Shown here: piece by piece, positions 1,920 through 28,125 of the stretch
Position numbering within the stretch: the first letter of the stretch is position 1
Layout of the letters: each line of letters starts with the position of its first letter
Source of the DNA: a virus
Taxonomy: Duplodnaviria > Caudoviricetes
IMG/VR virus record: IMGVR_UViG_3300017700_000721
Span: 1 to 64,000 of that record
DNA: 64,000 bases
Direction: 5' to 3' (one strand)
Program-made: the position numbers and the translations under genes
The notes under the pieces: generated by a model
The model's database searches: none
What the model saw: the letters and a program-made list of their open reading frames with translations, nothing else
What the model was told of the DNA's origin: nothing

Positions 1920-1948
1920 ATTATATCACAAGGTGAGCTCCTTGTCAA
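1920..1948 (-). promoter_or_regulatory. sigma70-type promoter
   Basis: TTGACA-17-TATAAT with extended TG. Confidence 0.9.
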
Positions 1949-1959
1949 CACTCTAATCC

Positions 1960-2617
1960 ATTCCGTCGGTGCAACCCTGCTATGCGTAGGTTGCATAAAA
2001 GTTCGGCTGCCGGGGCTTTTCTGGCGTCCTGAGAGGGACCGACCCTGGCTTCTGGTGCGAGGTATAAGCTCCACACCACTCTCTATTATCCCGGCCGACC
2101 GGGCACCTTCGCCGGGTGCACCCGGCTCTGGTCTCTTTGTCTGTATCGGGCTGGTATCCAGGAGAGCGGCGCCGCCCTTTGCCCCTCCACCACTTCGCTT
2201 GTCCGACGAGAATGGCCATCCCGTCCTTCCGCTCGACTTCCCTATTCGACTCGATCGCGTCGAGCCTACTGAGGGTTGTGCCCAATCTCTAATATCGAGG
2301 CCTGCGGAACGCGGTCAGTACGTCGACCAATCGGGGGAGAGATACGATTTCCCGCCGCGTCCGCCTGCCCGACGGTGCGATGCGACCCAGGGGATCGGTT
2401 ACGCCGCGTCGAAGAGGTTGGACTTGCCGCCTGCACCAGCTTCCTTTTCAGTCTACTGGAAGATCGACAAGTCCATTAGAGGGTATCCTATCGGATGATC
2501 CAGCCGGCCCCGCTTCAGTTGCCGGGCTGCCCCTCTCAAGACTTCCTCGCCTTCTAACGCACCCGGCGAGGTTGGGTGCCATCGTCGTGAGGATGCGCGT
2601 TCTGTTTCCCTCTTGAC
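1960..2617 (-). ncRNA. Putative large structured ncRNA (~660 nt)
   Basis: Own consensus promoter at 2624-2652; H-type pseudoknot 2545-2579; 12-bp long-range helix 2531-2542/2026-2037; 10-bp helix 2465-2474/2420-2429; mismatches are G-U on the minus strand only; no credible ORF. Confidence 0.75.
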
Positions 2618-2623
2618 CTCACT

Positions 2624-2652
2624 ATTATATCATAACGGAGTCAAGGTGTCAA
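2624..2652 (-). promoter_or_regulatory. sigma70-type promoter
   Basis: TTGACA-17-TATAAT with extended TG. Confidence 0.9.
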
Positions 2653-2668
2653 CTAACAATGCATGCAG

Positions 2669-3112
2669 TTAAGGAATACCTGTTATGCGTTCTTGATCAT
2701 CCTCGATTGGCCGGTAGGCGTAGTTGCCTGACTCGTAGGTTCTAGGCTCCGTTCCCTTCCCCAGGAACGCTCTCCGCCTTGACTTTCTCAGCCACTCTGT
2801 TAGACTCAGGGTCCCTGCTCCTGGTCCGCTGACGGGAACCCACTCGCCCAAGGGATGAAGGGTCCGGCGCTCCCACTGGGGCGGCAATCTCGCGACGGCG
2901 CCTTTCTGAGGCCGAGAGGTTCTCACTCGGGGTACTTGCCCCGAGAGGTCGGGCTGCTTTAACACCCACTTCCTGGCCAGGACTTTGCTCAGGAAGCTCT
3001 CCACCCTCTTTCCGTCTTTCTCGACGCTGTACACCCGGCTTTGGCTTGTTTTTACTCGTCGGATGAGGTGGCCGTTGAGAACGATCGGGGAACTCCTTGT
3101 TCCTTGCCTCAC
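2669..3112 (-). CDS. Hypothetical protein (overlaps RNase H C-terminal extension)
   Basis: 147-aa ORF, GTG start, globular-looking N-terminal half; ends just before next promoter. Confidence 0.5.
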   Translation of the reverse strand: MRQGTRSSPIVLNGHLIRRVKTSQSRVYSVEKDGKRVESFLSKVLARKWVLKQPDLSGQVPRVRTSRPQKGAVARLPPQWERRTLHPLGEWVPVSGPGAGTLSLTEWLRKSRRRAFLGKGTEPRTYESGNYAYRPIEDDQERITGIP

Positions 3113-3560
3113 GCATGGCCTCCTTCGCCATCTGGTCGCAGAGATTGTTCACACTAAACCTCGAGCCGTCTCCTGGCTGATGCCCTTTGACGTGCTTGGT
3201 TCGGAAGGTTAGGTTGAAACTCTCCGCCATCTTGAAAACGGCATCCCGGATCTCCTTGGACTCGGGGCTAAGTCTTTGCTTCGGTGTCCCGCCTACGTAG
3301 GTAAAGACTCCGAGCGCAGATAGACTGTCACACTGGACGAGGACCTCGTCGCCTACGAGGATGCCGCCTGCTTGAAGCCCTGAGTAAAGGACGTTTACGG
3401 CGGCTCGTGCCTCTGCGATGTCAGTCTTGTCTGTCTTTGCCTTTAGGACACCTTTGAACTGGAGTCCCTGCTGCATGCGATTGCTTTTAACCCAACCGCC
3501 ATATCCCACGATCCCCGTCTGTTGACAATGGGATGCGTCGGAGAAGAGCGTCACTAGCAA
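2742..3560 (-). CDS. rnhA: Ribonuclease HI
   Basis: FSDAS, AEARA, VQCDS, KHVKGH, NNLCDQMAK catalytic motifs; low-complexity tail. Confidence 0.9.
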   Translation of the reverse strand: MLVTLFSDASHCQQTGIVGYGGWVKSNRMQQGLQFKGVLKAKTDKTDIAEARAAVNVLYSGLQAGGILVGDEVLVQCDSLSALGVFTYVGGTPKQRLSPESKEIRDAVFKMAESFNLTFRTKHVKGHQPGDGSRFSVNNLCDQMAKEAMREARNKEFPDRSQRPPHPTSKNKPKPGVQRRERRKEGGELPEQSPGQEVGVKAARPLGASTPSENLSASERRRREIAAPVGAPDPSSLGRVGSRQRTRSRDPESNRVAEKVKAESVPGEGNGA

Positions 3561-3564
3561 ATCA

Positions 3565-4155
3565 TTACCTCCATGTTCGATGTTTGTCCTTGAAGTGTAA
3601 AACCTGTCGACGAGGGCTATCCTGCTCCTGCACGAGGAGTCGATCGTTGTATATAACTTCTACGGTCGCCGGTATTTCTACTTCGTTGGTGGTCCCGTCA
3701 ATGTTAAATTGCGTAAGGAGTATTGAAATCTCGTCCCCTTTCCCTGGTTGGGTCTGCTCGGGAGGCTCAAGGTCGCGAGCATGGACAGCGAACTTGGGTC
3801 CAATCTGGACAGGATAACCCATGTAGAAGGTGACTGGTGGGTACGGTACAATGTCCGGTGTGGCACACTTCCCGCTTTGAATGAGGTAATACTGCAGGTC
3901 CTTGTGCTCAATGTCCGTGATCTCAATCAGACAGACAAGAAGGTCCAATGTGTTGTAATGGGCAATCTCCTCGTTAATACGAAGGAGAATGTCCTCGGCG
4001 TTCCGCCAGATATGGTCTGATGTGGAACCCGGCGCCGGGCGGTCTGTGGGTAGGCCTACTATAGCGATGTTGTTCCAGTCGGGAGCGTTCCCAAACAATG
4101 AGTGGGCTACTGTCTTCAGTCCGCCAAGGAGAGTGTCCCATGCGTTAACCATCAC
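3565..4155 (-). CDS. Hypothetical protein
   Basis: 196-aa ORF coupled to neighbours. Confidence 0.7.
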   Translation of the reverse strand: MMVNAWDTLLGGLKTVAHSLFGNAPDWNNIAIVGLPTDRPAPGSTSDHIWRNAEDILLRINEEIAHYNTLDLLVCLIEITDIEHKDLQYYLIQSGKCATPDIVPYPPVTFYMGYPVQIGPKFAVHARDLEPPEQTQPGKGDEISILLTQFNIDGTTNEVEIPATVEVIYNDRLLVQEQDSPRRQVLHFKDKHRTWR

Positions 4156-4457
4156 GGTTCCCAGCTGTATCCCTTACCGTAGGTTGTCCTAATGGCTGAG
4201 AAGTCGGGGTCCACCCTGAGGAACTTCTTCTCCGTCCGGAGTTTGATCACCCGGATCGCGTTCGACCCTTGGTCCGCATTCTTCCAATCGGACTGGAAGA
4301 TGTGCTGGTAAGCCTCTTTGTACGAGCAAGGCTGCCCGTTCCTCCCCTTCACGAAGGCGAGGAACTTCTTCTCCGTCGGCGAGAATAGCAGTGGATTGCC
4401 CTTCCATTCGAAGGTCCTCGAGGCAGGCTCGCTTACGGGCAATGACGTTGAGGACAT
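4152..4457 (-). CDS. Stand-alone OmpR/PhoB-type winged-helix DNA-binding protein
   Basis: LLFSPTEKKFL...NAIRVIKLRTEKKF...IRTTYGKGY pattern of Trans_reg_C. Confidence 0.8.
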   Translation of the reverse strand: MSSTSLPVSEPASRTFEWKGNPLLFSPTEKKFLAFVKGRNGQPCSYKEAYQHIFQSDWKNADQGSNAIRVIKLRTEKKFLRVDPDFSAIRTTYGKGYSWEP

Positions 4458-4944
4458 GTTCGTCCATGCTCTTTATGTTGAGATTATGGAGGAGGTGGGG
4501 GTAGCCGTACTTCCAGTTTGCGTCGACCCGAGCCATACGGAGCTTAGTCTGTATGTCTGCGCAAGCATCCACGTAGTCAGGAGGGTCTGACATTACCGGC
4601 ACATGGTGCTCGTCGTGGATCGGAGGTGGATGGTTAAATGTGAATTCGTAAGCCTTGCGGAAGGCTGCTTCAAACTGCTCGTCGGACAGCTTGTCGAACT
4701 GAGCTCGGAAACCTGATCCGTTCTCGGGCAAAGTGCTTCCTAGCGTCTTGTAGCCGCAGCCGTAGCGCCATCCGTACATCAGCAGTTTCTGCACCTGCCT
4801 GATCTGGATGTGCTGGGCGATCGGAATGGTAGAGATTGGAGCCATCACCCGGGCTGCGGCCGTAGCTGTTTCCGGCATTGCCGGCTGAACGGCAGCGGCT
4901 GTCGCCAGGCCGAAGAAGCTCCGTCGGGTCAGGTTGACCTTCAC
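4189..4944 (-). CDS. Hypothetical protein with twin-arginine-like N-terminus
   Basis: GTG overlapping upstream TGA; NLTRRSFFGLATAAAV. Confidence 0.6.
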   Translation of the reverse strand: MKVNLTRRSFFGLATAAAVQPAMPETATAAARVMAPISTIPIAQHIQIRQVQKLLMYGWRYGCGYKTLGSTLPENGSGFRAQFDKLSDEQFEAAFRKAYEFTFNHPPPIHDEHHVPVMSDPPDYVDACADIQTKLRMARVDANWKYGYPHLLHNLNIKSMDEHVLNVIARKRACLEDLRMEGQSTAILADGEEVPRLREGEERAALLVQRGLPAHLPVRLEECGPRVERDPGDQTPDGEEVPQGGPRLLSH

Positions 4945-5078
4945 TTCGAAGCCTTCTTGTGGTTCTTTAGCATCTTGAGAGCTGCGTAAGGATCGCTGTG
5001 CTCGAAGCACAGCCCGCAACTACATGTCACCTTTGTGGTGGGTACGGCTGGCTCATAGCTCTTCAGGTTGTGCTTCAT
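4941..5078 (-). CDS. Small Cys/His protein (45 aa)
   Basis: MKHNLKSY...CSCGLCFEH...NH; fills gap, GTGA coupling. Confidence 0.55.
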   Translation of the reverse strand: MKHNLKSYEPAVPTTKVTCSCGLCFEHSDPYAALKMLKNHKKASK

Positions 5079-5087
5079 CGTAAGTCC

Positions 5088-5300
5088 CTATACAGGGAGA
5101 AGGTTTACACCCCAGGTCTGGGCGATGAAGCCGGCGCGGCGGAAGCGCATGGACTTACGATCCCCATACGCCATCGCCGGCTTCTTCAGGATCGATCGCT
5201 GGTCCTCTTTGACCAACTCCACGAGACGCGCTTGGTGGCGAGCATGGATCTTGCCTTCGTCGTAGGCTAGCTCGTGGAACCCGTCAAACTGCTCGGTCAT
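5088..5300 (-). CDS. Hypothetical early protein
   Basis: GGAGG SD, directly after promoter. Confidence 0.75.
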   Translation of the reverse strand: MTEQFDGFHELAYDEGKIHARHQARLVELVKEDQRSILKKPAMAYGDRKSMRFRRAGFIAQTWGVNLLPV

Positions 5301-5318
5301 GGTAGCCTCCAGGTCCTT

Positions 5319-5347
5319 ATTATATCACACCTGGGTAAGCTTGTCAA
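5319..5347 (-). promoter_or_regulatory. sigma70-type promoter
   Basis: TTGACA-17-TATAAT. Confidence 0.9.
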
Positions 5348-5613
5348 CTCGTCCGGATTGCTCGGTACTGGGTGTTAAGCCGCTTCATCAGCCCGATCTC
5401 GGAGTCCAGCTTCGCCCCGAGGTTGATAAGGGTTGAGCGTAGGTTCGCCGCCTCCACTTCGGTCAGGCCCAGGCTCTTGATCAGGGAGTGGTTGGAAAGG
5501 TTTGTGACCCGCTCCTTCAAATCACGGAGCTCGGCGCCGATGGTCGAAGTGGCCGAGATCTTGGCCCCTACGAGGACTTGGTTGCGGTTCCCAGCGTTCG
5601 TGTAACGAGCCAT
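5344..5613 (-). CDS. Hypothetical protein (helical)
   Basis: GGAGG SD; TAATG coupling. Confidence 0.7.
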   Translation of the reverse strand: MARYTNAGNRNQVLVGAKISATSTIGAELRDLKERVTNLSNHSLIKSLGLTEVEAANLRSTLINLGAKLDSEIGLMKRLNTQYRAIRTS

Positions 5614-5813
5614 TAGCGCTTCCTCCAACCGCCCACATAACCGAAGAAAGCCCAGAGCCTGTCTCCCCTCGTCGGGTTAGGGTCGTAGTCGACAGCCCAC
5701 CCTAGTCGTTTATAGGTCTGACCTTCTTCAGAAGTGAGACCCAACCAGATTGTTACACCCTTCCGAAAGATGCGATAGGTTGCTTTCGGTGCGGTTGGCT
5801 GCGGCTCGGTCAT
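5613..5813 (-). CDS. Hypothetical protein
   Basis: 66-aa ORF tiling the operon. Confidence 0.6.
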   Translation of the reverse strand: MTEPQPTAPKATYRIFRKGVTIWLGLTSEEGQTYKRLGWAVDYDPNPTRGDRLWAFFGYVGGWRKR

Positions 5814-6035
5814 CTAAGGCCTCTTGGGGAACTCGGCGGCACGGCTCAGCCACTTCTTCCTGAATACATGCCCGAGGTCCACGTTATGAGAAGAGCTAAG
5901 GAACCTCCCGCCCTTGGCTTCGTCGTAGTAAACCCCGGTAGGTATTCCGCCGGCGACTGGCCGGTGAGGCTTCCTCTTCACGGTGTACGGGCGGCCCAGC
6001 ATCATCCTCACGTCGGGCAGGCGATCTGCTACCAT
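5814..6035 (-). CDS. Hypothetical protein
   Basis: 73-aa ORF tiling the operon. Confidence 0.55.
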   Translation of the reverse strand: MVADRLPDVRMMLGRPYTVKRKPHRPVAGGIPTGVYYDEAKGGRFLSSSHNVDLGHVFRKKWLSRAAEFPKRP

Positions 6036-6457
6036 GGCTGTTGCGGGAAGTCAGCCGTCCGGTTCTTCCACAGCTCGTGGAAGTTGCGACCAAGGCCTCT
6101 GTGTGTCGCGTTGGTCTTGAACTGACCTGTCACGCCGTCCCAATAGATCCCTTGAGGGATCGGCAGGTTGTTCGACGGGGTTGCGTCCTTGACCTGCGGG
6201 TCGGTGAGGAAGCGGAGCTTCTGGATGGAGCGCTCGATCTCCTTCTCCATGTCGTCGAGTGCCTTCTCGGCCTTCATGACGGTGGCGTCACGGTCGAGAG
6301 CGAAGGTGACCATGGATATAGCGGCCACGCTCCCCTTCTCGGCTGTGGTGATGTGCGTCTTGCCGAACCAGAGCTTGAGCTCATGACCCTCGTCGACGAC
6401 CTTAATGTGCTTGAGTAGAGAGAAGAGGTTGGCAGTTTCGTTCGTCGACGAGGTCAT
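6029..6457 (-). CDS. Hypothetical protein
   Basis: 142-aa ORF, AAGGA SD. Confidence 0.75.
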   Translation of the reverse strand: MTSSTNETANLFSLLKHIKVVDEGHELKLWFGKTHITTAEKGSVAAISMVTFALDRDATVMKAEKALDDMEKEIERSIQKLRFLTDPQVKDATPSNNLPIPQGIYWDGVTGQFKTNATHRGLGRNFHELWKNRTADFPQQPW

Positions 6458-6466
6458 TATAAGTCC

Positions 6467-6694
6467 TTAGGTGTCGGCGCTTGAGGGGCGGCCCGTCTCG
6501 TAGTTGAAGAGGGCCTTGTTCTCCGGAATGGCCATGTCCGTGATCTCACCCCGGTAGCCGTCGGCGCGCACGGCCGGGAAGACTTCGGACGCCGGGCCCC
6601 GGTAGTCCTCCATCTCCACGTCGTTCTGGTCGAACACCCGTGTGGTTCCGTCGAGAAGCTGGAATACCTTCGTGATCCTACGCTGTTCGTCCAT
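6467..6694 (-). CDS. Hypothetical protein
   Basis: AGGAG SD before MDEQRR. Confidence 0.7.
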   Translation of the reverse strand: MDEQRRITKVFQLLDGTTRVFDQNDVEMEDYRGPASEVFPAVRADGYRGEITDMAIPENKALFNYETGRPSSADT

Positions 6695-6695
6695 G

Positions 6696-7151
6696 TCAAA
6701 ACTCCTGGCTGTCGTCAACGGTGTATACCTTGCTCACCCAATCAGAGTGATTAGCGAAAACAAAGCGATCCTGCTGGCCAACCTCCCCACCTACGTAGAA
6801 ACGCTTGTCGGCCGCAACGTGCACGAAGTCTGGCTTCCCGAAGAAGCGAACCATCCGGTCAAATTGCTCGGTTCCACGCTTCACGCCGACGAAGTGTAAG
6901 GCTGAGCTGTCCCCTGGGAACGAGTAGTAACCCCTGGTTACTTCAGCCATATCTCGGGTGACACCGCTGTAGGCTACGTGCACCTCCATCAAGGAGAAAG
7001 CCTGCGCCAACGAGAAGCCCATCGTCCGGTAGTTCCGACCAGACAAGAACTCGCTGTGCATCAACGTCTTGGGTATGGGCGGGCTCAAGGGAGGCGGCTC
7101 AGGCATCCCTCGCAACCTCTTAACCTTGGCCTTCATCTCGGGGCTCATCAT
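6696..7151 (-). CDS. Hypothetical early protein
   Basis: GAGGAG SD after promoter. Confidence 0.75.
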   Translation of the reverse strand: MMSPEMKAKVKRLRGMPEPPPLSPPIPKTLMHSEFLSGRNYRTMGFSLAQAFSLMEVHVAYSGVTRDMAEVTRGYYSFPGDSSALHFVGVKRGTEQFDRMVRFFGKPDFVHVAADKRFYVGGEVGQQDRFVFANHSDWVSKVYTVDDSQEF

Positions 7152-7174
7152 GGCATGTCTCCTCTGTTGTGCCC

Positions 7175-7203
7175 ATTATAACACAACCTAGGGTTGGTGT
7201 CAA
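7175..7203 (-). promoter_or_regulatory. sigma70-type promoter
   Basis: TTGACA-17-TATAAT. Confidence 0.9.
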
Positions 7204-7529
7204 CGTTCTATTTCAAGTCCTCGCTCCTCCATCCGGCGCTTCCATTCCTCACGACGAGTCTTGGTCCAGCCCCGGTAGTGCCAGTAATCAAACTCACCTG
7301 GCTGGAAAGGACCGTAGGTCCTAACTACAGGTAGGTGCCTCTGGACCACCTGAAATGCCATGAGGGTGCGGGCCGAGGTTCGCCTCATAGCAGGCGTCAG
7401 GTCCGATACGTTAAAGTCGTAGGCTGTCGCCTGACGGAGATCGCCTCGATCGGTGATCACTAAGGCTTCTGCGAGGGCGGCGGTCGCAATTATCCGTGCG
7501 TCTTCCAGGTTCATCTCTTGGCTCATCAT
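7200..7529 (-). CDS. Hypothetical protein
   Basis: AGGAGG SD before MMSQEM. Confidence 0.7.
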   Translation of the reverse strand: MMSQEMNLEDARIIATAALAEALVITDRGDLRQATAYDFNVSDLTPAMRRTSARTLMAFQVVQRHLPVVRTYGPFQPGEFDYWHYRGWTKTRREEWKRRMEERGLEIER

Positions 7530-7542
7530 AAGAGCCTCCTGT

Positions 7543-7761
7543 TTACAGCTGTGCCTTGATGACCATCGCGGCGTAGCGGGCGGCGGTGTTATCGTCACCC
7601 TCGATCCCGGCGGCCTTGGCCTTAGCCAAGGATTGCAGCATCTCCTTGAAGACGCTGTCGCGCGGCAGGATCGGCCCGTCACGCATCATCCAGATGACCT
7701 GCTCGAGGGTCGCCCGCATCTGACGGGCTGCGCTGTCTCGCTCGTTCTGCTCGGTGCTCAT
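7543..7761 (-). CDS. Hypothetical protein
   Basis: SD before MSTEQN; strong codon bias. Confidence 0.7.
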   Translation of the reverse strand: MSTEQNERDSAARQMRATLEQVIWMMRDGPILPRDSVFKEMLQSLAKAKAAGIEGDDNTAARYAAMVIKAQL

Positions 7762-7765
7762 GTCC

Positions 7766-8065
7766 TTACCTCCGGTGGGTGTTGGCGAAGCCGCTGAACA
7801 TGGCGCGCATGTTGCTGCGACGGGTTGTAGGACGAGGGGTCGGGAAGTCACCGATCTTCTTGATCTCGCACTGGACGATGCCCGTCTCCTCCTTCATCAG
7901 GGCAGCGAGCTCGCCGATCGTGTTGGCCTCGAAGGTGGCACGAACGCGGCGGCTTCCTTCGGCGCCGGTCATGAGAACTCCGCCGAGGGTGTATTGCGCG
8001 TCGCGGTCAGCGTGAAGGCTCTTGACTTCGAGGACCGGGTTCTCGTTGGAGGTGTTGAAGGCCAT
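7766..8065 (-). CDS. Hypothetical early protein
   Basis: AAGGAG SD after promoter. Confidence 0.75.
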   Translation of the reverse strand: MAFNTSNENPVLEVKSLHADRDAQYTLGGVLMTGAEGSRRVRATFEANTIGELAALMKEETGIVQCEIKKIGDFPTPRPTTRRSNMRAMFSGFANTHRR

Positions 8066-8089
8066 CTGTCTCTCCTTGTTGATGTCACT

Positions 8090-8118
8090 ATTATAGCACA
8101 GCTAGGGACAGATGTCAA
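8090..8118 (-). promoter_or_regulatory. sigma70-type promoter
   Basis: TTGACA-17-TATAAT. Confidence 0.9.
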
Positions 8119-8135
8119 CAAGAGAAGTTATGCTC

Positions 8136-8342
8136 TTAGCGCGTTCCTGGTATGCGCCGGACGATGACGGTTGTCGGTGTCCTCGTCATCCGCTCTATGG
8201 CTTTGTTGGCCGCATCCTCAGTCGGGTAGAACCCCATTGTGGAGTTGACCGTCTTCCAGGCGCCTTTAATGCCCCAGGTCACGGAGCCGTTCCGGTTGGT
8301 CATAGGGACGGCTCCGTAAACGGCAGGCTTACGAGCCGGCAT
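8136..8342 (-). CDS. Hypothetical protein
   Basis: MPARKPAVYG...; purine-rich SD. Confidence 0.6.
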   Translation of the reverse strand: MPARKPAVYGAVPMTNRNGSVTWGIKGAWKTVNSTMGFYPTEDAANKAIERMTRTPTTVIVRRIPGTR

Positions 8343-8589
8343 CTTCCTTCTCCAGCTGCTTGGCCTCGAACTCCTCGATAGCCTCGTCCAACTGATCATC
8401 GTATTCAGCCTGCCAGACCTCGTCTTTCGTGACCTCGGTGATGATCTCGCTGGGGAACTGGTTGGGAGCGGTCGCACAGAACCGCTCCAAGAAGGCGTCG
8501 GCTTGAGCCTTGGCGTGGTCCATCATCGCCCGCTTCTGCTGAGCGGAGCGGCCGGAGACAATCTCGTCTTCACGTAGGTTGCGGGTCAT
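8329..8589 (-). CDS. Hypothetical acidic protein
   Basis: 86-aa ORF with acidic C-terminus. Confidence 0.7.
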   Translation of the reverse strand: MTRNLREDEIVSGRSAQQKRAMMDHAKAQADAFLERFCATAPNQFPSEIITEVTKDEVWQAEYDDQLDEAIEEFEAKQLEKEDAGS

Positions 8590-8599
8590 TTTCTGTTCC

Positions 8600-8839
8600 T
8601 TACTGTTCCGGGTTGATGCTGTGCTTGGTGTCCAGCCATGTGAACTTGGGGTCCATACCCACGGGAACCACCTGATTGTTTAGAAGGTCTACCATGCTAG
8701 GCATGAAGCGCTCGTAGGTTGGGTGATCGTCATCGTACCGTTCGTAAACCCGTACCAACCAAGTGAGCAAGATCGGGCTCATCTGCAGGTGAATTATGAT
8801 CATCCCACGAATGTAATGGTCGGGTTTGGGCTCACTCAT
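8600..8839 (-). CDS. Hypothetical protein
   Basis: MSEPKPDH... tiling ORF. Confidence 0.6.
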   Translation of the reverse strand: MSEPKPDHYIRGMIIIHLQMSPILLTWLVRVYERYDDDHPTYERFMPSMVDLLNNQVVPVGMDPKFTWLDTKHSINPEQ

Positions 8840-9131
8840 TGTCGTAGGCCTTCTCGTGTCTAGCGTCCCAATCCTTCTGTAGCGAGAACTGGTTGGATCC
8901 ATCTTGTTTGGCCTTGATAGAGGCTCGGGCTGCTTTCAGCGCGCCGGTCTTGGTCCGGAACGGATATCCTGTGTGACCGTAGTTGTCCTGCACCCCGATG
9001 ATGTAGTTGCAGAACCAGGTTCTGGTCGGGATGAAGCTCGCGCCGTCGTCCCCGTCCATCTTCTCGATGAGATCAACGGCCTTGGCGTTCGGGTTCTGGG
9101 CACGATCCCAGACGGCGCTGTAGTTGGTCAT
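8832..9131 (-). CDS. Hypothetical early protein
   Basis: GAGGAG SD after promoter. Confidence 0.75.
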   Translation of the reverse strand: MTNYSAVWDRAQNPNAKAVDLIEKMDGDDGASFIPTRTWFCNYIIGVQDNYGHTGYPFRTKTGALKAARASIKAKQDGSNQFSLQKDWDARHEKAYDNE

Positions 9132-9156
9132 TCTGATGTCTCCTCGTTGATGCCCT

Positions 9157-9185
9157 ATTTTAGCACACTAGGGGCGTGGTGTCAA
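9157..9185 (-). promoter_or_regulatory. sigma70-type promoter
   Basis: TTGACA-17-TAAAAT with TG extension. Confidence 0.85.
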
Positions 9186-9214
9186 CAAGAAATGTATGCG
9201 CTAGTGCATTCTAG

Positions 9215-9601
9215 CTATGCACTAGGTACGTCAATCTCGTCCGCGATCTTCGCAAAGATCATCTTCTTGGCCAGCATTTCGAGGACTCGGCGGGCGGCGT
9301 TCTGCTCCTTCCGCTGATGACTCTCGAAACGAGCTGCGTAGGTTGATCCTTCGACCGCGTCGACAAGGATCGCCTTGTCAAGGTCCGTGAAAATCGGTGG
9401 GATGGTCCTGTCGTTCGCCCCAACTAGAATAGCCAGGTGTTGGGCCCGCTCGAGCACTTCTTCGTAGGTGTCGGAGACTGTTGGCTTCTCTCCTGGGAAT
9501 GCGTCCGTGAGGGCCGAGGCGATGCAGTCCGGCAGATTGAGCCGGTCCATAATTGCAGCATGTTCGTTCGGTGAGAGACGCACGTGGTCGGTTCCGGTCA
9601 T
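9215..9601 (-). CDS. Hypothetical protein
   Basis: 128 aa, AGGAG SD. Confidence 0.75.
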   Translation of the reverse strand: MTGTDHVRLSPNEHAAIMDRLNLPDCIASALTDAFPGEKPTVSDTYEEVLERAQHLAILVGANDRTIPPIFTDLDKAILVDAVEGSTYAARFESHQRKEQNAARRVLEMLAKKMIFAKIADEIDVPSA

Positions 9602-9610
9602 GATTGGCTC

Positions 9611-9751
9611 CTAGTGCACGGTCTTCGGCGGAACGTACCGCTTCACAAACTCTTCTTTGTCCGGGCAGTTACGCCCAAACCAGCGGTGCATGCCGGTTAC
9701 CAACTCGAAAGCGTATTCCATCTTGATTGCGATCAGAACTTGCTCGAACAT
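9611..9751 (-). CDS. Small early protein (46 aa)
   Basis: GAGGAGG SD; MFEQVLIAIKMEYAFELVTG... Confidence 0.65.
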   Translation of the reverse strand: MFEQVLIAIKMEYAFELVTGMHRWFGRNCPDKEEFVKRYVPPKTVH

Positions 9752-9775
9752 AAACCCTCCTCAGGCTACCATACA

Positions 9776-9804
9776 ATTATAGCATATTCGGAGGCATTTG
9801 TCAA
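9776..9804 (-). promoter_or_regulatory. sigma70-type promoter
   Basis: TTGACA-17-TATAAT. Confidence 0.9.
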
Positions 9805-9819
9805 CTATTCATTTCAGAC

Positions 9820-9862
9820 AAAAGAAAGGGCCGCCCGTCCCCGTGACTTAAGCGACCCTTTC
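9820..9862 (-). terminator. Intrinsic terminator
   Basis: GAAAGGGUCGC/GCGGCCCUUUC stem followed by U-tract. Confidence 0.75.
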
Positions 9863-10340
9863 CGTCTACCCATAAATGCACTGGCATGTGCTGCCTGGCG
9901 CTAGCTACAGGCCGTCCAGTGGGGCTGTTGCCCCTTGCCATCGGCGTGATGGGCGACATACGGGGAACTTGGTGAGAGGTTCTTGCTCGACGGCTGTGGC
10001 CGGAGCGCTCTCGACGATACAGTAAAAGAACGCTTCGCCCCGGAAGTAGGTTGATGCCGCGATTACGCGGAGCAGGCTGGGCCGGGTGACGTTCAATCTC
10101 ATCTACCGCCTTAGGCCGCACACTGTCTCTCGACAATGGCGGCCTTGATAAGGTGGGAGTGAGAAGGCGGATTGCAGCGGCCCTTCTACTATCCCTATGT
10201 GCCGCTTTACTGCTCCTTCATTCACTTTCTCCTGGGCCTCGGCCCGGTTCAGGTCTTTGGCTGCTTGTCTTCCACCTGGCTGCCCCTAGAGAACGGGGCG
10301 CCTGTCTGGTGTAGGACGCCGGCGCCGGCAGATCAGGTGC
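9820..10340 (-). ncRNA. Putative large structured RNA (~520 nt) downstream of a leader ORF
   Basis: No credible ORF; AGGCCGC-CAUUGUC-GAGA-GACAGUG-U-GCGGCCU hairpin (10113-10145), CACCUG/CAGGUG, GGAGCAG/CUGCUCC long-range pair, GGGGC-AACA-GCCCC, ends in terminator. Confidence 0.6.
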
Positions 10341-10389
10341 GGTCGAGCTTGGAATTCACACAAACCATGAGCCCGGTGAAACTTCGCAT
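10333..10389 (-). CDS. 18-aa leader/micro-peptide
   Basis: AAAGGAGG SD then MRSFTGLMVCVNSKLDRT*. Confidence 0.5.
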   Translation of the reverse strand: MRSFTGLMVCVNSKLDRT

Positions 10390-10459
10390 GTAAACCTCCT
10401 TTCTTTCCTTTGCACACCCGAGAACTGAGATGGAAACATGCCGGGTGTCTGCTTGCCCC

Positions 10460-11032
10460 TTATCTTACAGCCTCCAGCCTTCCGATCAAAGAGGGAAGCC
10501 TCATCTTGACCTGTACGAGGACTTGCTCGAGAGGGGTGTTGAAGATCTCGGGCTCCTCCACCCAGAACCGCTGAACAGCCTTCCAGCACTCGCCGGCCAT
10601 GTTCAGACCGTTGCGATCCTCACCCCATCCCCAGAAGGGGTCACGCCAGCTGTTCTCGATCGGCATCTTGTCACCGAGCTGGGAGAGCTTGTGCTGTACG
10701 TAGGTATGCTGGTGCGCTTTGCAGAACATGAGCACGGCCATCACTGGGACTTTGATCATGTCCCATTTCGGGTTGCGGTCCGCCTTGTATTCCTGCGCGA
10801 TCTTAAAGGCATCGTGAGCGGAGCGTGCCTTTAGAATATACTGCTGGGCCAGGAAGGCTGCGGGGGTCGGGCGGCTGTCGTAATGGAACTTCTCCCAGTG
10901 GTACGTGTGCTCGAGGGTGTCGAAGTCGTTGCCTCGCCAATTCAGCCGGAAGGCGGAGAAGTTCGAGAAAGGATAAAAGTCCTGCTCGTAAAAGAACGCC
11001 TGCTTCTCATTGTCGAGCGTAAGACGGGTCAT
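10460..11032 (-). CDS. NADAR family protein (YbiA-like)
   Basis: PFSNF, TLEHTYHWEKF, W...K..VM, IENS.RDPFWG.G.D..G.N..G motifs. Confidence 0.9.
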   Translation of the reverse strand: MTRLTLDNEKQAFFYEQDFYPFSNFSAFRLNWRGNDFDTLEHTYHWEKFHYDSRPTPAAFLAQQYILKARSAHDAFKIAQEYKADRNPKWDMIKVPVMAVLMFCKAHQHTYVQHKLSQLGDKMPIENSWRDPFWGWGEDRNGLNMAGECWKAVQRFWVEEPEIFNTPLEQVLVQVKMRLPSLIGRLEAVR

Positions 11033-11385
11033 TGTTTCGCTCTCAGCCAGGGCATTGGACCCTGGTCCACTGGTTCGTTGTACCACCCTTCAACATACAC
11101 TGCCATTGGCTGCCAGTTCGGCCGTTTGTCATCAGCACTGGAGCGCATGAAGGTTACACCCCTAGGGTCCATCCACTTACATACGTCGGCAATCCAGTCG
11201 CGGATTGAGGACTGCACCTGATCCGCATCCTCAAACTCCAGTGGGTCGAACTCTCGCTTGAATGTATAGTCGGGAGGTGCACATCCTTCGTCTGCCCCAA
11301 GGTCCACTTCCGTCCAGTCGGGCGGCTTCGGAGGCAGACTCAGTCTTGCCGCCCTGTCTCGGAGCATGTCGGTGAACTTGCTCAC
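11029..11385 (-). CDS. Hypothetical protein
   Basis: 118 aa, coupled. Confidence 0.7.
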   Translation of the reverse strand: MSKFTDMLRDRAARLSLPPKPPDWTEVDLGADEGCAPPDYTFKREFDPLEFEDADQVQSSIRDWIADVCKWMDPRGVTFMRSSADDKRPNWQPMAVYVEGWYNEPVDQGPMPWLRAKQ

Positions 11386-11756
11386 CTAGCGATCCTCTGA
11401 GGCACGGCCGGGCTACCGTCGGCCTTCCTCACGTGGATGCAGAGGCAGTCAGAACCTGCTTCGAACTCCTTGCACATGTCGGGCCTTGTCTCGTAGGTTC
11501 CACAGCGCCCGTTTGGAAGAAGAGCGCGACACGCCCAGAACCACATACGAGGTTGACCGTCTAATTCCAAGGGCACGGTCAGTGGACGCAAGGCCTCAAA
11601 GAGAGGCCCGTGACGCTCCATTCCTGCGCCGTGTGACACTAAGTAGGCTTCAGCTTCTTGCCTGTCTGTGATCTCGAAAGGAATACGAAGGCTGATCGGG
11701 ATAGCCCGGCAGCACGACCCCGGTGCAACACAGAGGTCGCAAGAGATCTCAGCCAT
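11382..11756 (-). CDS. YkgJ-family cysteine-cluster (Zn/Fe-chelating) protein
   Basis: CDLC...SCCR, C..L...RC..YE.RP.MC..F. Confidence 0.85.
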   Translation of the reverse strand: MAEISCDLCVAPGSCCRAIPISLRIPFEITDRQEAEAYLVSHGAGMERHGPLFEALRPLTVPLELDGQPRMWFWACRALLPNGRCGTYETRPDMCKEFEAGSDCLCIHVRKADGSPAVPQRIAR

Positions 11757-12006
11757 AGAACTTCTTCAGTTCTGTGTCGGTGGGATGTTGGTCAAGGTTG
11801 ATGCGCCGGAGCGGGTGTGCGATGCCCTCGCTCAACAGCTGGTCCTCGTCTGAACGAAAGCGGAACCGGAGGTCTGCCTCGTTCATTGCGTCCAGAATCT
11901 GGAGGTGGAAGTCAGCTTCGATTGCGGCATCGCACCAATCAGACTTGTCTCTATCAAGCAGCACGGGACCCTGCTTCCAGATCAGGCGTAGGTTCGCTCC
12001 CATCAT
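11749..12006 (-). CDS. Hypothetical protein
   Basis: ATGA coupling; shares DW..AA..ADF.L motif with neighbour. Confidence 0.65.
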   Translation of the reverse strand: MMGANLRLIWKQGPVLLDRDKSDWCDAAIEADFHLQILDAMNEADLRFRFRSDEDQLLSEGIAHPLRRINLDQHPTDTELKKFYG

Positions 12007-12263
12007 CGAGGCTGGGAGCCGCCGCTGAGCCACAGGAGGTCTCCTTCCGTTGCGTATCGCATTGGCTGAGAGGTTGCTTCAGCCAGACGATGATCCCGCT
12101 CCACGAGCTCATAGTCCTTGCGGCGCAGCTTGTCAGGCGGAGGGTTGAGCTCAAGCAGGAAGTCTGCGTTGACGGCTGCCTCCAGCCAATCCCGTCGATC
12201 TTTCTCGTCAAACTGACGACGCAAGTTGGCAGGACGGGGCTGTCCGAAGCGATGTCGGTTCAT
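12003..12263 (-). CDS. Hypothetical protein
   Basis: ATGA coupling. Confidence 0.65.
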   Translation of the reverse strand: MNRHRFGQPRPANLRRQFDEKDRRDWLEAAVNADFLLELNPPPDKLRRKDYELVERDHRLAEATSQPMRYATEGDLLWLSGGSQPR

Positions 12264-12454
12264 CTTCCTTGCATCCTTCGAAGGGCTCTCGGCTTGATCT
12301 TCTTGTTCGGCAGGTACTTGTGCCCGTCCTTTTTGTTGGCCCGAGGCGGAGGGTAAAAGGAAGGCTGTTTCTCGCTTGGCTCCGGTACGTGGAGTGTCCT
12401 CGGCAAGCCGGTCAACATGAGCGATGCTGCTGCGAGGATTGCGTGGCGGTTCAT
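12260..12454 (-). CDS. Hypothetical basic protein with hydrophobic N-terminus
   Basis: MNRHAILAAASLML...; ATGA coupling. Confidence 0.6.
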   Translation of the reverse strand: MNRHAILAAASLMLTGLPRTLHVPEPSEKQPSFYPPPRANKKDGHKYLPNKKIKPRALRRMQGR

Positions 12455-12540
12455 TTCAGGGTCTTGTAGATCGCTGCTGTGATCATTACAAAGAGGACAA
12501 TCGTGAAGAACGCCCAGAAAGCAGATTCGAGGAAGCTCAT
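12451..12540 (-). CDS. Single-pass membrane micro-protein (29 aa)
   Basis: MSFLESAFWAFFTIVLFVMITAAIYKTLK; ATGA overlaps at both ends. Confidence 0.65.
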   Translation of the reverse strand: MSFLESAFWAFFTIVLFVMITAAIYKTLK

Positions 12541-12629
12541 TTCCAGCGGTGAGCCAGATAGAGGAAGATGTAAGCCAAGGCGCCAATGAGTCCAGCGCCT
12601 CCGATGAGTCCGATTGCGAGCGGGGTCAT
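12537..12629 (-). CDS. Single-pass membrane micro-protein (30 aa)
   Basis: MTPLAIGLIGGAGLIGALAYIFLYLAHRWK; ATGA overlaps at both ends. Confidence 0.65.
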   Translation of the reverse strand: MTPLAIGLIGGAGLIGALAYIFLYLAHRWK

Positions 12630-12778
12630 TTTCGGGTTGCCTTCCAAATAGCTATTGCGACAACTACAAATACCCCGAGGCAAGTTACCAGAAAGATGCC
12701 TGCGTCAGATATTGAGGACCCTTGGACACAGAGCACCTGGCCGCATGTGACTAGGCTGTGTCCCACGTAGTAGGTCAC
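12626..12778 (-). CDS. Small membrane protein (50 aa)
   Basis: GTGA/ATGA coupled; C-terminal TM then WKATRK. Confidence 0.6.
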   Translation of the reverse strand: MTYYVGHSLVTCGQVLCVQGSSISDAGIFLVTCLGVFVVVAIAIWKATRK

Positions 12779-12999
12779 TGGTCAGTCCAAAGCTTGTTGC
12801 TGGCGAATTGCTCCATTTCCCTGGGACCAAGGGAGCATATGATCTCGTCATGAAGGCACAGGCAGATGTACGGGTCGCCTTGCTCTCCGGCGTGGTACTC
12901 CGGTCGGCGCCTTATCTCCAGGGTGAAGGCGTCTCGAAGGGCTTGGATCAAGAGAGGATCCTTGAGGAAGCTTGCAATCTGGTCAGTGGAGAGGTTCAT
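12775..12999 (-). CDS. Hypothetical protein
   Basis: MNLSTDQIASF...; TGATG coupling. Confidence 0.6.
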   Translation of the reverse strand: MNLSTDQIASFLKDPLLIQALRDAFTLEIRRRPEYHAGEQGDPYICLCLHDEIICSLGPREMEQFASNKLWTDQ

Positions 13000-13178
13000 C
13001 AGATCCGCCGCTTCATGGCAGCCAGGAAGGCGATGATCCCCAACATGACTATGGCGAGCGACATAAAGGTGATTGCGTCGACGTGGTGCCCAGATCGGTT
13101 GGCCACGAGTGACACGGCGAGGGCACCAATGAAATCGAAGAAGCCCAGGCACATAAGGAAGTTGATCGCGGTCTTCAT
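12999..13178 (-). CDS. Two-TM small membrane protein (59 aa)
   Basis: MKTAINFLMCLGFFDFIGALAVSLV...SLAIVMLGIIAFLAAMKRRI; coupled at both ends. Confidence 0.65.
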   Translation of the reverse strand: MKTAINFLMCLGFFDFIGALAVSLVANRSGHHVDAITFMSLAIVMLGIIAFLAAMKRRI

Positions 13179-13414
13179 TCTGACCCCTTTGCCATTCTGA
13201 TGGCTTCTCGGCAGATACTTCGGTCAAGCATCCGCAATAGCGTTACGTAGGTTGCAAACGCTACGGTCCAGCAGAGCCTGCCGAACGACCAATCGCTGGC
13301 TTCCCACCACATGATCCCTATGAAACCAAGCGGGATGTGGATCGTTAGATGGATAAACCTGCCCAAGCTTGGGGACCAGATCTTTGCGATGAAGTCTGCG
13401 GCTTTGGTGCTCAT
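13175..13414 (-). CDS. Small membrane protein
   Basis: Two hydrophobic segments; ATGA coupling. Confidence 0.65.
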   Translation of the reverse strand: MSTKAADFIAKIWSPSLGRFIHLTIHIPLGFIGIMWWEASDWSFGRLCWTVAFATYVTLLRMLDRSICREAIRMAKGSE

Positions 13415-13605
13415 ATTAACACGCAGCGGGGCCAGTCCTGGCACGCCGACTCGTGATAGGTTCCGCAAGGGCATTTGTCCTTATTCTTCGCGGGCTTAGA
13501 AAGGTCCGCAGACGGTTCGTTGTCATGAACCAGATCCACGTTGGTCGGCCGGGAACCTGAGTTCCGGAACTTGCCTCGTATCATGGGCGTGAGCTCGTCG
13601 GTCAC
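13411..13605 (-). CDS. Small Cys-rich protein
   Basis: CPCG..H...C...P.C; GTGA coupling. Confidence 0.55.
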   Translation of the reverse strand: MTDELTPMIRGKFRNSGSRPTNVDLVHDNEPSADLSKPAKNKDKCPCGTYHESACQDWPRCVLI

Positions 13606-13877
13606 AGGTGATCTCCTTCGTGAGCCTTGACTTGGGCCGGGCTCTTGGTGTCGAAGCGCAGGCCGCATTTGACACACTTCTTGAGAAGCCTCTCGTTGGC
13701 GAAGAAGATCTGGTTCTTCATGTCGTTGGCAATCTTCTCCTGGTCCGTAAGTTCACGGCGAGGAGGCTCGGATACGGGACGGCCCTTCTTCACCTTAAGA
13801 GAGGGTTCCGGAACTTTGGATGCCTCGGCAGAACCGTTGATGGCGGCGAGGAGAGCTTCTTGGATTGTCTTAGCCAT
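13602..13877 (-). CDS. Zinc-finger-like protein, probably leaderless
   Basis: CVKCG...H...H; ATG 6 nt after the -10 box. Confidence 0.75.
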   Translation of the reverse strand: MAKTIQEALLAAINGSAEASKVPEPSLKVKKGRPVSEPPRRELTDQEKIANDMKNQIFFANERLLKKCVKCGLRFDTKSPAQVKAHEGDHL

Positions 13878-13882
13878 GACCT

Positions 13883-13911
13883 ATCTTACCATACCCAAGG
13901 CAGGGTGTCAA
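13883..13911 (-). promoter_or_regulatory. sigma70-type promoter (leaderless transcript)
   Basis: TTGACA-17-TAAGAT. Confidence 0.8.
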
Positions 13912-28093: not shown

Positions 28094-28125
28094 AAGAAGG
28101 GGCAAGGATTGCTCCCTGCCCCTTC
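28094..28125 (-). terminator. Terminator-like hairpin
   Basis: GAAGGGGCAGGGA-GCAA-UCCUUGCCCCUUC-UU. Confidence 0.7.

What the first reader, a model, noticed from the sequence alone, without database searches (positions are those of the whole stretch)
9820..10460. 18-codon leader ORF coupled to a ~520-nt structured RNA ending in a terminator
Seen: after the NADAR stop there is a hairpin (CACCCGG/UCGGGUG), a very strong SD (AAAGGAGG), an 18-aa ORF, then ~520 nt of dense pairing with no credible ORF: GAGA-capped 14-bp hairpin (10113-10145), GGAGCAG/CUGCUCC (10210-10216/10069-10075), a competing CAGUAAA/UUUACUG pair, several small GC hairpins and an intrinsic terminator. The leader's stop codon overlaps helix CACCUG/CAGGUG (10334-10339/10273-10278). 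No gene lies downstream in the same transcript to attenuate, since the next gene has its own promoter. Inference: the RNA is itself the product and may be loaded on, or folded by, ribosomes.
Basis: partly seen in the sequence, partly recalled or inferred. Interest (0 to 1): 0.78.

Follow-up and report, generated by a model that had tools for sequence, protein, structure and literature searches.

The report
Untranslated operon tail with strong mini-ORF
Behind a phage anti-defence (NADAR) gene lies about 600 bases of protein-free RNA that starts with the genome's strongest ribosome-binding site on an 18-codon ORF and ends in a terminator, but only one hairpin domain and the terminator fold better than chance, so it looks like an operon tail and not a proven large structured RNA.

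Summary
In order these are the NADAR stop, an 8-bp hairpin, a polypurine tract with the SD AAGGAGGU, and an 18-codon ORF (10389->10333). About 470 nt without a credible gene follow, then an intrinsic terminator (9863-9818) and a perfect sigma-70 promoter (9804-9776).

The claim of about 520 nt of dense pairing does not hold. The core MFE z-score (-2.6) lies inside the range of ordinary coding windows of the same genome (mean -1.4, 4 of 17 as low). Perfect 6-7-bp complements are no more frequent than in shuffles. Only the 10050-10230 domain, which holds the 14-bp GAGA hairpin, and the terminator are local outliers.

Rfam, Pfam, PHROGs, 1.84 billion protein representatives, 50,697 phage genomes and 149 fetched loci gave no homolog of the stretch. 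Relatives exist (flanking proteins at 59-63% identity), but their contigs could not be fetched, so covariation is untested.

Best reading (about 0.4): an untranslated 3' tail of an early operon whose strong SD and mini-ORF load ribosomes. A predicted distal anti-SD helix is suggestive only. Rivals are a gene remnant, small proteins, or a stand-alone RNA. Interest is modest.

The parts
10460..11032 (-). NADAR gene (190 aa from ATG 11032). It is the last long gene of the early operon. Its ATG overlaps the stop of the upstream 118-aa ORF (ATGA).
   Evidence: Pfam PF08719 E 7e-16; phrog_1017; own gene call P0001 of 190 aa and 1,205 homologs
10414..10448 (-). 8-bp hairpin ACACCCGG/UCGGGUGU with a 19-nt loop, 12 nt after the NADAR stop. 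It has no U-tract, so it is not a terminator.
   Evidence: MFE helix, probability 0.89; local z not significant
10394..10411 (-). Polypurine tract AAAGGAAAGAAAGGAGG running into the SD AAGGAGGU (10401-10394), 4 nt before AUG.
   Evidence: Sequence. It is the longest SD match before a start codon in any gap of the genome.
10333..10389 (-). 18-codon mini-ORF MRSFTGLMVCVNSKLDRT plus UGA.
   Evidence: codon LLR -6.0 and GRAVY 0.10, so neither clearly coding nor a membrane peptide
10050..10233 (-). The only internal domain folding better than chance. It comprises a long interrupted hairpin (10226-10158) and the 14-bp, one-bulge, GAGA-capped hairpin (10145-10113).
   Evidence: 120-nt windows z -3.4 to -5.9 against a genome background with none <= -4.7; helix probabilities 0.79-1.00
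9964..9991 (-). Distal strand predicted to pair with the SD and mini-ORF. The three segments are GUCGAGC with 10348-10342, GAACCUCU with the SD 10399-10392, and UUCC with 10408-10405.
   Evidence: Pair probabilities 0.85-0.99. The SD is long-range paired at P 0.98, against >= 0.9 in 2 of 63 downstream shuffles. It forms only once nt ~490 is made. Prediction only.
9813..9863 (-). Intrinsic terminator: a 14-bp stem (GGAAAGGGUCGCUU/GGGCGGCCCUUUCU) followed by a U-rich tail.
   Evidence: P 0.95; z -4.6; sub-threshold terminator-like Rfam alignment
9776..9804 (-). Perfect TTGACA-17-TATAAT promoter with extended -10 TG, which drives the next operon (46-aa and 128-aa genes).
9905..10102 (-). Candidate 65-aa ORF (AUG right after the GAGA hairpin, SD-like UAAGGCGGU 2 nt before the AUG). 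Neither supported nor excluded.
   Evidence: Codon LLR -4.0, similar to the genuine CxxCxxCC gene at -2.2. No homolog or self-hit in 1.84e9 representatives. PHROGs found nothing.

Best explanation
The stretch is the untranslated 3' tail of a phage early operon. Host RNA polymerase starts at the sigma-70-type promoter at 13911, reads through small early genes ending with NADAR, and stops at the intrinsic terminator at 9863-9813, 10 nt before the next perfect promoter. (Shown: gene order, promoters, terminator and absence of coding signal.)

About 70 nt after the NADAR stop, a polypurine tract with an 8-nt SD reloads ribosomes onto an 18-codon ORF. By analogy with polypurine/STAB-SD stabilisers and the hbs mRNA, I infer that this ribosome binding covers the start of the tail. 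That would shield the tail from nucleases and from Rho, so that transcription reaches the terminator.

The hairpin domain at 10050-10230 and the terminator hairpin would act as 3' decay barriers and insulate the operon from the next promoter. A distal anti-SD segment (9991-9964) is predicted to close over the SD and the mini-ORF once it is transcribed, which would shut off the mini-ORF. That step is prediction only.

The tail is not shown to be a large ornate RNA with a function of its own.
For: Operon layout: eight near-consensus minus-strand promoters between 13911 and 1920, none between 13911 and 9804, and the terminator directly before P9804. No coding signal and no protein homolog. The SD is the strongest before any start codon in a gap. 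Only the 10050-10230 domain and the terminator are structural outliers. The global z is ordinary for this genome. Long-range SD sequestration is predicted at P 0.98 and is rare in shuffles, 2 of 63. Precedents for ribosome- or SD-dependent RNA stabilisation and for 5'/3' pairing onto an SD: PMC2358910, PMC5737220, PMC3868564, and PMC3997798 (references 106 and 179).
Against: There are no RNA data and the host is unknown, so the anti-SD sequence and the RNase set are assumed. No homologous sequence could be obtained, so nothing shows that selection acts on the SD, the mini-ORF or any helix. A 470-nt tail is far longer than stabilisation or insulation needs. Elsewhere in the same early region genes abut promoters without such tails (for example the gene ending at 9215 before P9185). 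The SD is predicted to be partly paired (0.55-0.8) even in nascent RNA.
Confidence: 0.4

Rival explanations
1. Gene remnant. The SD and the first 18 codons are the surviving start of a gene that once followed NADAR. The rest has decayed into neutral spacer that happens to contain hairpins.
For: In 111 other NADAR loci, all five strong SD+ATG sites found within 200 nt after NADAR open normal genes of 102-215 codons, never a mini-ORF. The tail's fold and complementary-word content are at background level. The genome is otherwise compact.
Against: No frame keeps residual coding signal or similarity to any protein. Stop depletion is absent. Phage genomes usually delete dead DNA quickly. The perfectly kept, unusually long SD and the well-formed terminator argue for continued use.
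Confidence: 0.2
2. Small proteins are the products: the 18-aa peptide, the 65-aa ORF (10102->9905), or both. In that case the RNA structure is incidental.
For: The mini-ORF has the best RBS in the genome's gaps. The 65-aa ORF has an SD-like UAAGGCGGU ending 2 nt before its AUG, and its codon score (-4.0) is no worse than that of the genuine CxxCxxCC gene (-2.2). The phage encodes other tiny ORFs nearby, for example the 29-59-aa membrane-like ORFs at 12451-13178. Lack of homologs is uninformative, because the clear 46-aa neighbour gene also has none.
Against: The read-through of the 40-aa and 65-aa frame found no homolog and no self-hit in 1.84e9 representatives, so the source pipeline did not call a gene there. 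PHROGs and Pfam found nothing. The 18-aa peptide has no membrane-spanning stretch or other recognisable feature. The 40-aa ORF scores clearly non-coding at -14.9.
Confidence: 0.2
3. One reading: a stand-alone stable non-coding RNA of about 0.5-0.6 kb, cut out of the operon transcript. Its 5' end would be capped by ribosomes on the SD and mini-ORF, and translation would time or steer its folding.
For: A hairpin and polypurine-SD arrangement at the 5' side and a terminator at the 3' side. A predicted 19-bp three-segment closing stem joins the SD and mini-ORF to 9991-9964. A GNRA-capped hairpin domain is in the top ~0.5% of local structure. The same phage has other protein-free early stretches (earlier notes e1-5959743 and e1-5959746).
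Against: The global fold is not better than that of coding windows. There is no excess of complementary words, no Rfam family even at E<=10, and no own promoter. There is no paralog in the genome and no match in 99 fetched loci searched by covariance model or 149 loci searched by nhmmer/blastn. Covariation is untestable here.
Confidence: 0.15

Closest known systems
Polypurine / STAB-SD 5' mRNA stabilisers and ribosome-protected mRNAs (B. thuringiensis cryIIIA STAB-SD; the B. subtilis polypurine 5' mRNA stabiliser of Hue et al. 1995; mycobacterial katG; B. subtilis hbs). Sources: PMC2358910, PMC5737220, PMC3997798 refs 106 and 179.
   Same: A long purine run with extended complementarity to the 16S 3' end, placed ahead of RNA that needs no long translation. 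A short translated stretch follows; katG stability needed about 20 codons. hbs also uses a 5'/3'-UTR interaction.
   Different: Those elements sit near a mapped 5' end of a protein-coding mRNA, and their effect was measured. Here the element is internal, 70 nt behind a stop codon, and what follows is non-coding. No 5' end or half-life is known, and neither is the host.
3'UTR-to-SD pairing in bacterial mRNAs (S. aureus icaR, PMC3868564) and fold-back inhibition in type I toxin mRNAs of the hok type (the latter from my own knowledge).
   Same: A distal downstream segment with an anti-SD word is predicted to pair with the SD hundreds of nucleotides upstream and close the RNA.
   Different: In icaR and hok the sequestered SD belongs to a functional protein gene. 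Here it serves an 18-codon ORF whose peptide is not hydrophobic enough for a type I toxin (GRAVY 0.10). No antisense promoter was found. The pairing is only a single-sequence prediction.
Large ornate phage-associated non-coding RNAs (ROOL, GOLLD) and other Rfam large RNAs.
   Same: A protein-free stretch of several hundred nucleotides in a phage genome, with GNRA-capped helices.
   Different: No covariance-model match even at E<=10. The fold is not above genome background. No conservation is demonstrable.
Leader-peptide transcription attenuators (trp/his type) and Rho-dependent leader-ORF switches (tnaC, mgtL; from my own knowledge).
   Same: A short ORF with a good SD lies upstream of structured RNA and a terminator.
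   Different: The terminator is 470 nt from the ORF stop, not immediately behind it. The ORF has no run of regulatory codons. The downstream genes have their own perfect promoter.

Membership tests
Any Rfam 15 RNA family (including ROOL, GOLLD, OLE, HEARO, raiA, tmRNA, 6S, riboswitches, introns) | Covariance-model score at or above the family's gathering threshold | tested here: not met
   0 matches in the whole window at gathering thresholds. With E<=10 on 9500-10800 there were only three chance-level hits of 12.5-15.5 bits against gathering scores of 50-100. One of them merely aligns the terminator hairpin.
Leader-peptide transcription attenuator | Terminator/antiterminator alternatives directly behind the leader ORF, so that ribosome position decides termination | tested here: not met
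   The ORF stop is at 10333 and the terminator at 9863-9813, about 470 nt away.
Leader-peptide transcription attenuator | Regulated structural genes downstream on the same transcript | tested here: not met
   The next genes follow a 12/12 TG-extended promoter placed 10 nt after the terminator.
Leader-peptide transcription attenuator | Clustered regulatory codons in the leader peptide | tested here: not met
   MRSFTGLMVCVNSKLDRT has no repeated residue run.
STAB-SD / polypurine ribosome-dependent RNA stabiliser | Purine-rich sequence with extended complementarity to the 16S rRNA 3' end | tested here: met
   AAAGGAAAGAAAGGAGGU contains an 8-nt match to the canonical SD consensus, the longest before a start codon in any gap. 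The host's anti-SD is assumed to be canonical.
STAB-SD / polypurine ribosome-dependent RNA stabiliser | Position near a native or processed 5' end, and a measured stabilising effect that depends on ribosome binding | not testable with these tools
   No transcript-end or half-life data; the phage is uncultured and its host unknown.
Type I toxin mRNA (hok/aapA1-like) | Small hydrophobic membrane peptide | tested here: not met
   GRAVY 0.10; the longest hydrophobic run is about 8 residues.
Type I toxin mRNA (hok/aapA1-like) | Long-range 5'-3' pairing that hides the SD, plus an antisense RNA | tested here: inconclusive
   The pairing is predicted. No plus-strand promoter was found in the stretch.
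Intrinsic (Rho-independent) terminator | G+C-rich stem-loop followed by a U-tract | tested here: met
   14-bp stem, P 0.95, followed by a U-rich tail; z -4.6. The simple scanner missed it because its loop limit is 3-8 nt.
NADAR domain protein (flanking gene) | Pfam PF08719 match above the gathering score | tested here: met
   59.3 bits against a cut-off of 35.1.

The most novel reading that the evidence does not exclude
The tail is a genuine phage early non-coding RNA of about 0.6 kb, processed out of the NADAR operon. A ribosome parked on a super-strong SD and 18-codon ORF protects its 5' end while the RNA is being made. An anti-SD segment 420 nt downstream then locks that SD away. This would be a translation-timed folding switch for an RNA product and not for a protein gene.
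Probability: 0.12. Interest if true: 0.65.

Novelty: new member of a known kind. Interest (0 to 1): 0.3.

Why it matters
If the tail is only an operon 3' end or a gene remnant, it is ordinary. It would then mainly warn that lists of 6-7-bp complements in 59% G+C DNA do not indicate a fold.

The one oddity worth a bench test is that the phage's best ribosome-binding site serves an 18-codon ORF with nothing to translate behind it, next to an anti-DarT-type (NADAR) counter-defence gene. If ribosome loading there controls the life-time or folding of the RNA, it would extend SD-dependent RNA stabilisation to a phage non-coding transcript.

Tried and rejected
- Rfam: searched at gathering thresholds and at E<=10; nothing.
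- tRNA/tmRNA scan: none.
- blastn against 50,697 phage genomes: nothing.
- tblastn of read-through frames against phage genomes: nothing.
- Pfam and PHROGs on every ORF of 40 aa or more in the stretch: nothing.
- phmmer of the 40+65-aa frame against 1.84e9 representatives: the only hit, P0123, is a translated tandem satellite repeat whose 17 weak stretches add up. I rejected it as spurious.
- Six-frame tblastn, blastn and nhmmer against the NADAR and hairpin-pattern loci and against the phage's own genome: only promoter look-alikes.
- Single-sequence covariance model of 10233-10100 against the window, 99 loci and the whole genome: self-hit only.
- Relatives: NADAR at 63% identity (P0002, 9.5-kb contig) and p128 at 59-63% (P0125-P0127, contigs up to 37 kb) exist. 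Scans of viral contigs, metagenome contigs and genome contigs did not return them.
- Hairpin pattern scan of viral contigs: 22 unrelated stretches, most of them terminator hairpins on small contigs.
- Long open frame (138 codons) as a sign of coding: rejected, P=0.13 in shuffles.
- TAG recoding, raised because all three stops in one frame are TAG: rejected, since TAG ends 32 of 140 called genes.
- Attenuator, type I toxin, and replication-origin or iteron readings: rejected (see membership tests). No repeats apart from promoters were found.
- NADAR-linked conserved companion: rejected. No other NADAR locus has a mini-ORF or a similar tail.

Full report
**Setting.** The window is the first 64 kb of a complete 118,081-bp IMG/VR phage record whose ends repeat 123 bp. 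In the training set of 83 long ORFs, 77 lie on the minus strand. The finding must therefore be read on the minus strand, from 10460 down to 9812. Eight near-consensus sigma-70 promoters, six of them 12/12 with an extended -10 TG, lie on the minus strand between 13911 and 1920. This is therefore an early region read by host polymerase. No promoter-like site lies between 13911 and 9804, so the stretch is transcribed as the end of the operon that starts at 13911.

**Anatomy.**
- The NADAR gene (PF08719, E 7e-16) runs from 11032 to 10460. Its ATG overlaps the stop of the preceding ORF.
- After its UAA comes an 8-bp hairpin (10448-10414).
- A 17-nt polypurine tract follows and runs into AAGGAGGU (10401-10394).
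- Four bases later AUG opens an 18-codon ORF (10389-10333, MRSFTGLMVCVNSKLDRT, stop UGA).
- About 470 nt follow, down to a 14-bp terminator stem (9863-9850/9836-9823) with a U-rich tail.
- Ten bases further on is the -35 box of a perfect promoter (9804-9776), which drives a 46-aa and a 128-aa gene.

**Is it coding?**
- A codon log-likelihood model trained on 83 long ORFs of this genome is low in all six frames across 9816-10440. The flanking genes score +10 to +17 per 96 nt.
- Per ORF the scores are: mini-ORF -6.0, 40-aa ORF -14.9, 111-aa ORF -22.1, 65-aa ORF -4.0.
- The 65-aa value is no worse than that of the genuine CxxCxxCC gene (-2.2), so this ORF (10102-9905) cannot be excluded.
- The long stop-free frame is not significant (P 0.13).
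- Pfam, PHROGs, tblastn against 50,697 phages and six-frame tblastn against the NADAR loci and the phage's own genome gave nothing.
- phmmer of the read-through 40+65-aa frame against 1.84 billion representatives gave only a spurious satellite-repeat protein and no self-hit. The source pipeline therefore called no gene there.
- As a control, the well-formed 46-aa neighbour gene also has no homolog other than itself. Missing homologs thus say little for small ORFs.

**Is it a structured RNA?**
- No Rfam family matches.
- The whole stretch folds with z -1.7 to -1.9, and the core 10332-9866 with z -2.57 (2 of 200 shuffles as good).
- Seventeen 467-nt coding windows of the same genome have mean z -1.41 (sd 1.19), and four reach -2.46 or lower. 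The value is therefore ordinary here.
- Perfect complementary 6-mers and 7-mers are no more frequent than in shuffles: 40 and 8 against 46 and 12. Only CACCUG/CAGGUG appears in the fold at all, as a 5-bp helix at probability 0.47; the other two are absent.
- In 120-nt windows only two places stand out. One is 10050-10229 (z -3.4 to -5.9), which holds the GAGA-capped 14-bp hairpin and a neighbouring interrupted hairpin. The other is the terminator.
- In 381 background windows, 0.8% reach -4 and none reaches -4.7.
- Strong stem-loops in gaps are common in this phage.

**Two features remain noteworthy.**
- The SD and AUG of the mini-ORF form the longest SD match before a start codon in any gap of the genome. 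Called gene starts reach at most 6-nt matches.
- The thermodynamic ensemble pairs this SD (10399-10392) with GAACCUCU at 9982-9975. It also pairs codons 14-16 of the mini-ORF (10348-10342) with 9991-9985, at probabilities 0.96-0.99. Such long-range SD pairing at P>=0.9 arose in 2 of 63 runs in which the downstream part was shuffled. It appears only once about 490 nt have been made. This is suggestive, but it is a single-sequence prediction.

**Comparative evidence could not be obtained.**
- NADAR has a 63%-identical relative (P0002) and p128 has three relatives at 59-63% (P0125-P0127), so kin of this phage exist.
Scans of viral, metagenome and genome contigs did not return those contigs.
- The 125 other NADAR loci that were fetched show no similarity to the tail and no neighbour synteny.
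- Among the 111 of these loci with enough downstream sequence, every strong SD+ATG behind NADAR opens a normal gene of 102-215 codons.
- A hairpin-pattern scan and a single-sequence covariance model found only unrelated sequences, mostly terminator hairpins, and the query itself.

**Interpretation.**
- The best-supported reading is an untranslated operon tail that reloads ribosomes on a mini-ORF and ends in a terminator.
- Published cases show that polypurine or SD elements plus a short translated stretch stabilise downstream RNA (PMC2358910; PMC3997798 refs 106 and 179).
- They also show that initiating ribosomes at a strong SD block exonucleolytic decay, together with a 5'/3'-UTR interaction (PMC5737220), and that a 3'UTR can pair with an SD (PMC3868564).
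- I infer, and have not shown, that this tail works in that way.
- A gene remnant, small proteins, or a stand-alone RNA remain open alternatives.
- NADAR itself fits the known phage counter-defence against DarT ADP-ribosylation (PMC11257639, PMC11543638), but nothing links the tail to that function.

**Earlier notes.** Earlier notes of this scan on the same genome (e1-5959743, e1-5959746) reached a similar verdict for two other protein-free early stretches. I confirmed only their promoters.

Noticed in passing
window 1920-13911, minus strand (second-hexamer ends / first-hexamer starts at 13911, 9804, 9185, 8118, 7203, 5347, 2652, 1948): Eight near-consensus TTGACA-17-TATAAT promoters with an extended -10 TG, six of them 12/12. 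They mark a multi-promoter early region. blastn also finds promoter look-alikes near 49.6, 50.5 and 59.5 kb, and at 106.2 and 108.9 kb of the genome.
   Followed up: partly
window 12451-12540, 12537-12683, 12999-13178 (minus strand): Three tiny ORFs of 29, 48 and 59 aa with membrane-helix-like sequences lie in an apparent 'gap' of the same operon. They are probably unannotated small membrane peptides.
   Followed up: no
window 11382-11756 (minus strand): A 124-aa CxxCxxCC zinc/iron-chelating domain protein (PF03692, E 3e-6) has a codon score near zero. Codon statistics therefore miss some true early genes of this phage.
   Followed up: partly
window 9215-9601 (minus strand): The 128-aa ORFan downstream has three homologs at 59-63% identity (P0125-P0127) with a conserved AVEGSTYAA motif. 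These mark the only detectable kin of this phage in the protein collection.
   Followed up: partly
window 24797-27127 (minus strand): The 776-aa protein is a class II (B12-dependent) ribonucleotide reductase. Its best cultured matches are roseophage enzymes at 45-47% identity, which is too distant to name a host.
   Followed up: no
window 28096-28125; genome 67858-67892 and 75814-75845 (minus strand): Perfect 13-14-bp stem-loops lie in intergenic gaps. Some have a U-rich tail (28125->28096, GCAA loop) and others do not. They may be RNA processing or stability hairpins of the same kind as the GAGA hairpin.
   Followed up: no
protein P0123 in the representative library: A 1,424-aa 'protein' made of 17 or more copies of a ~60-aa repeat is evidently a translated satellite DNA. 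Summed weak repeat hits gave it a misleading E-value of 6e-12.
   Followed up: yes
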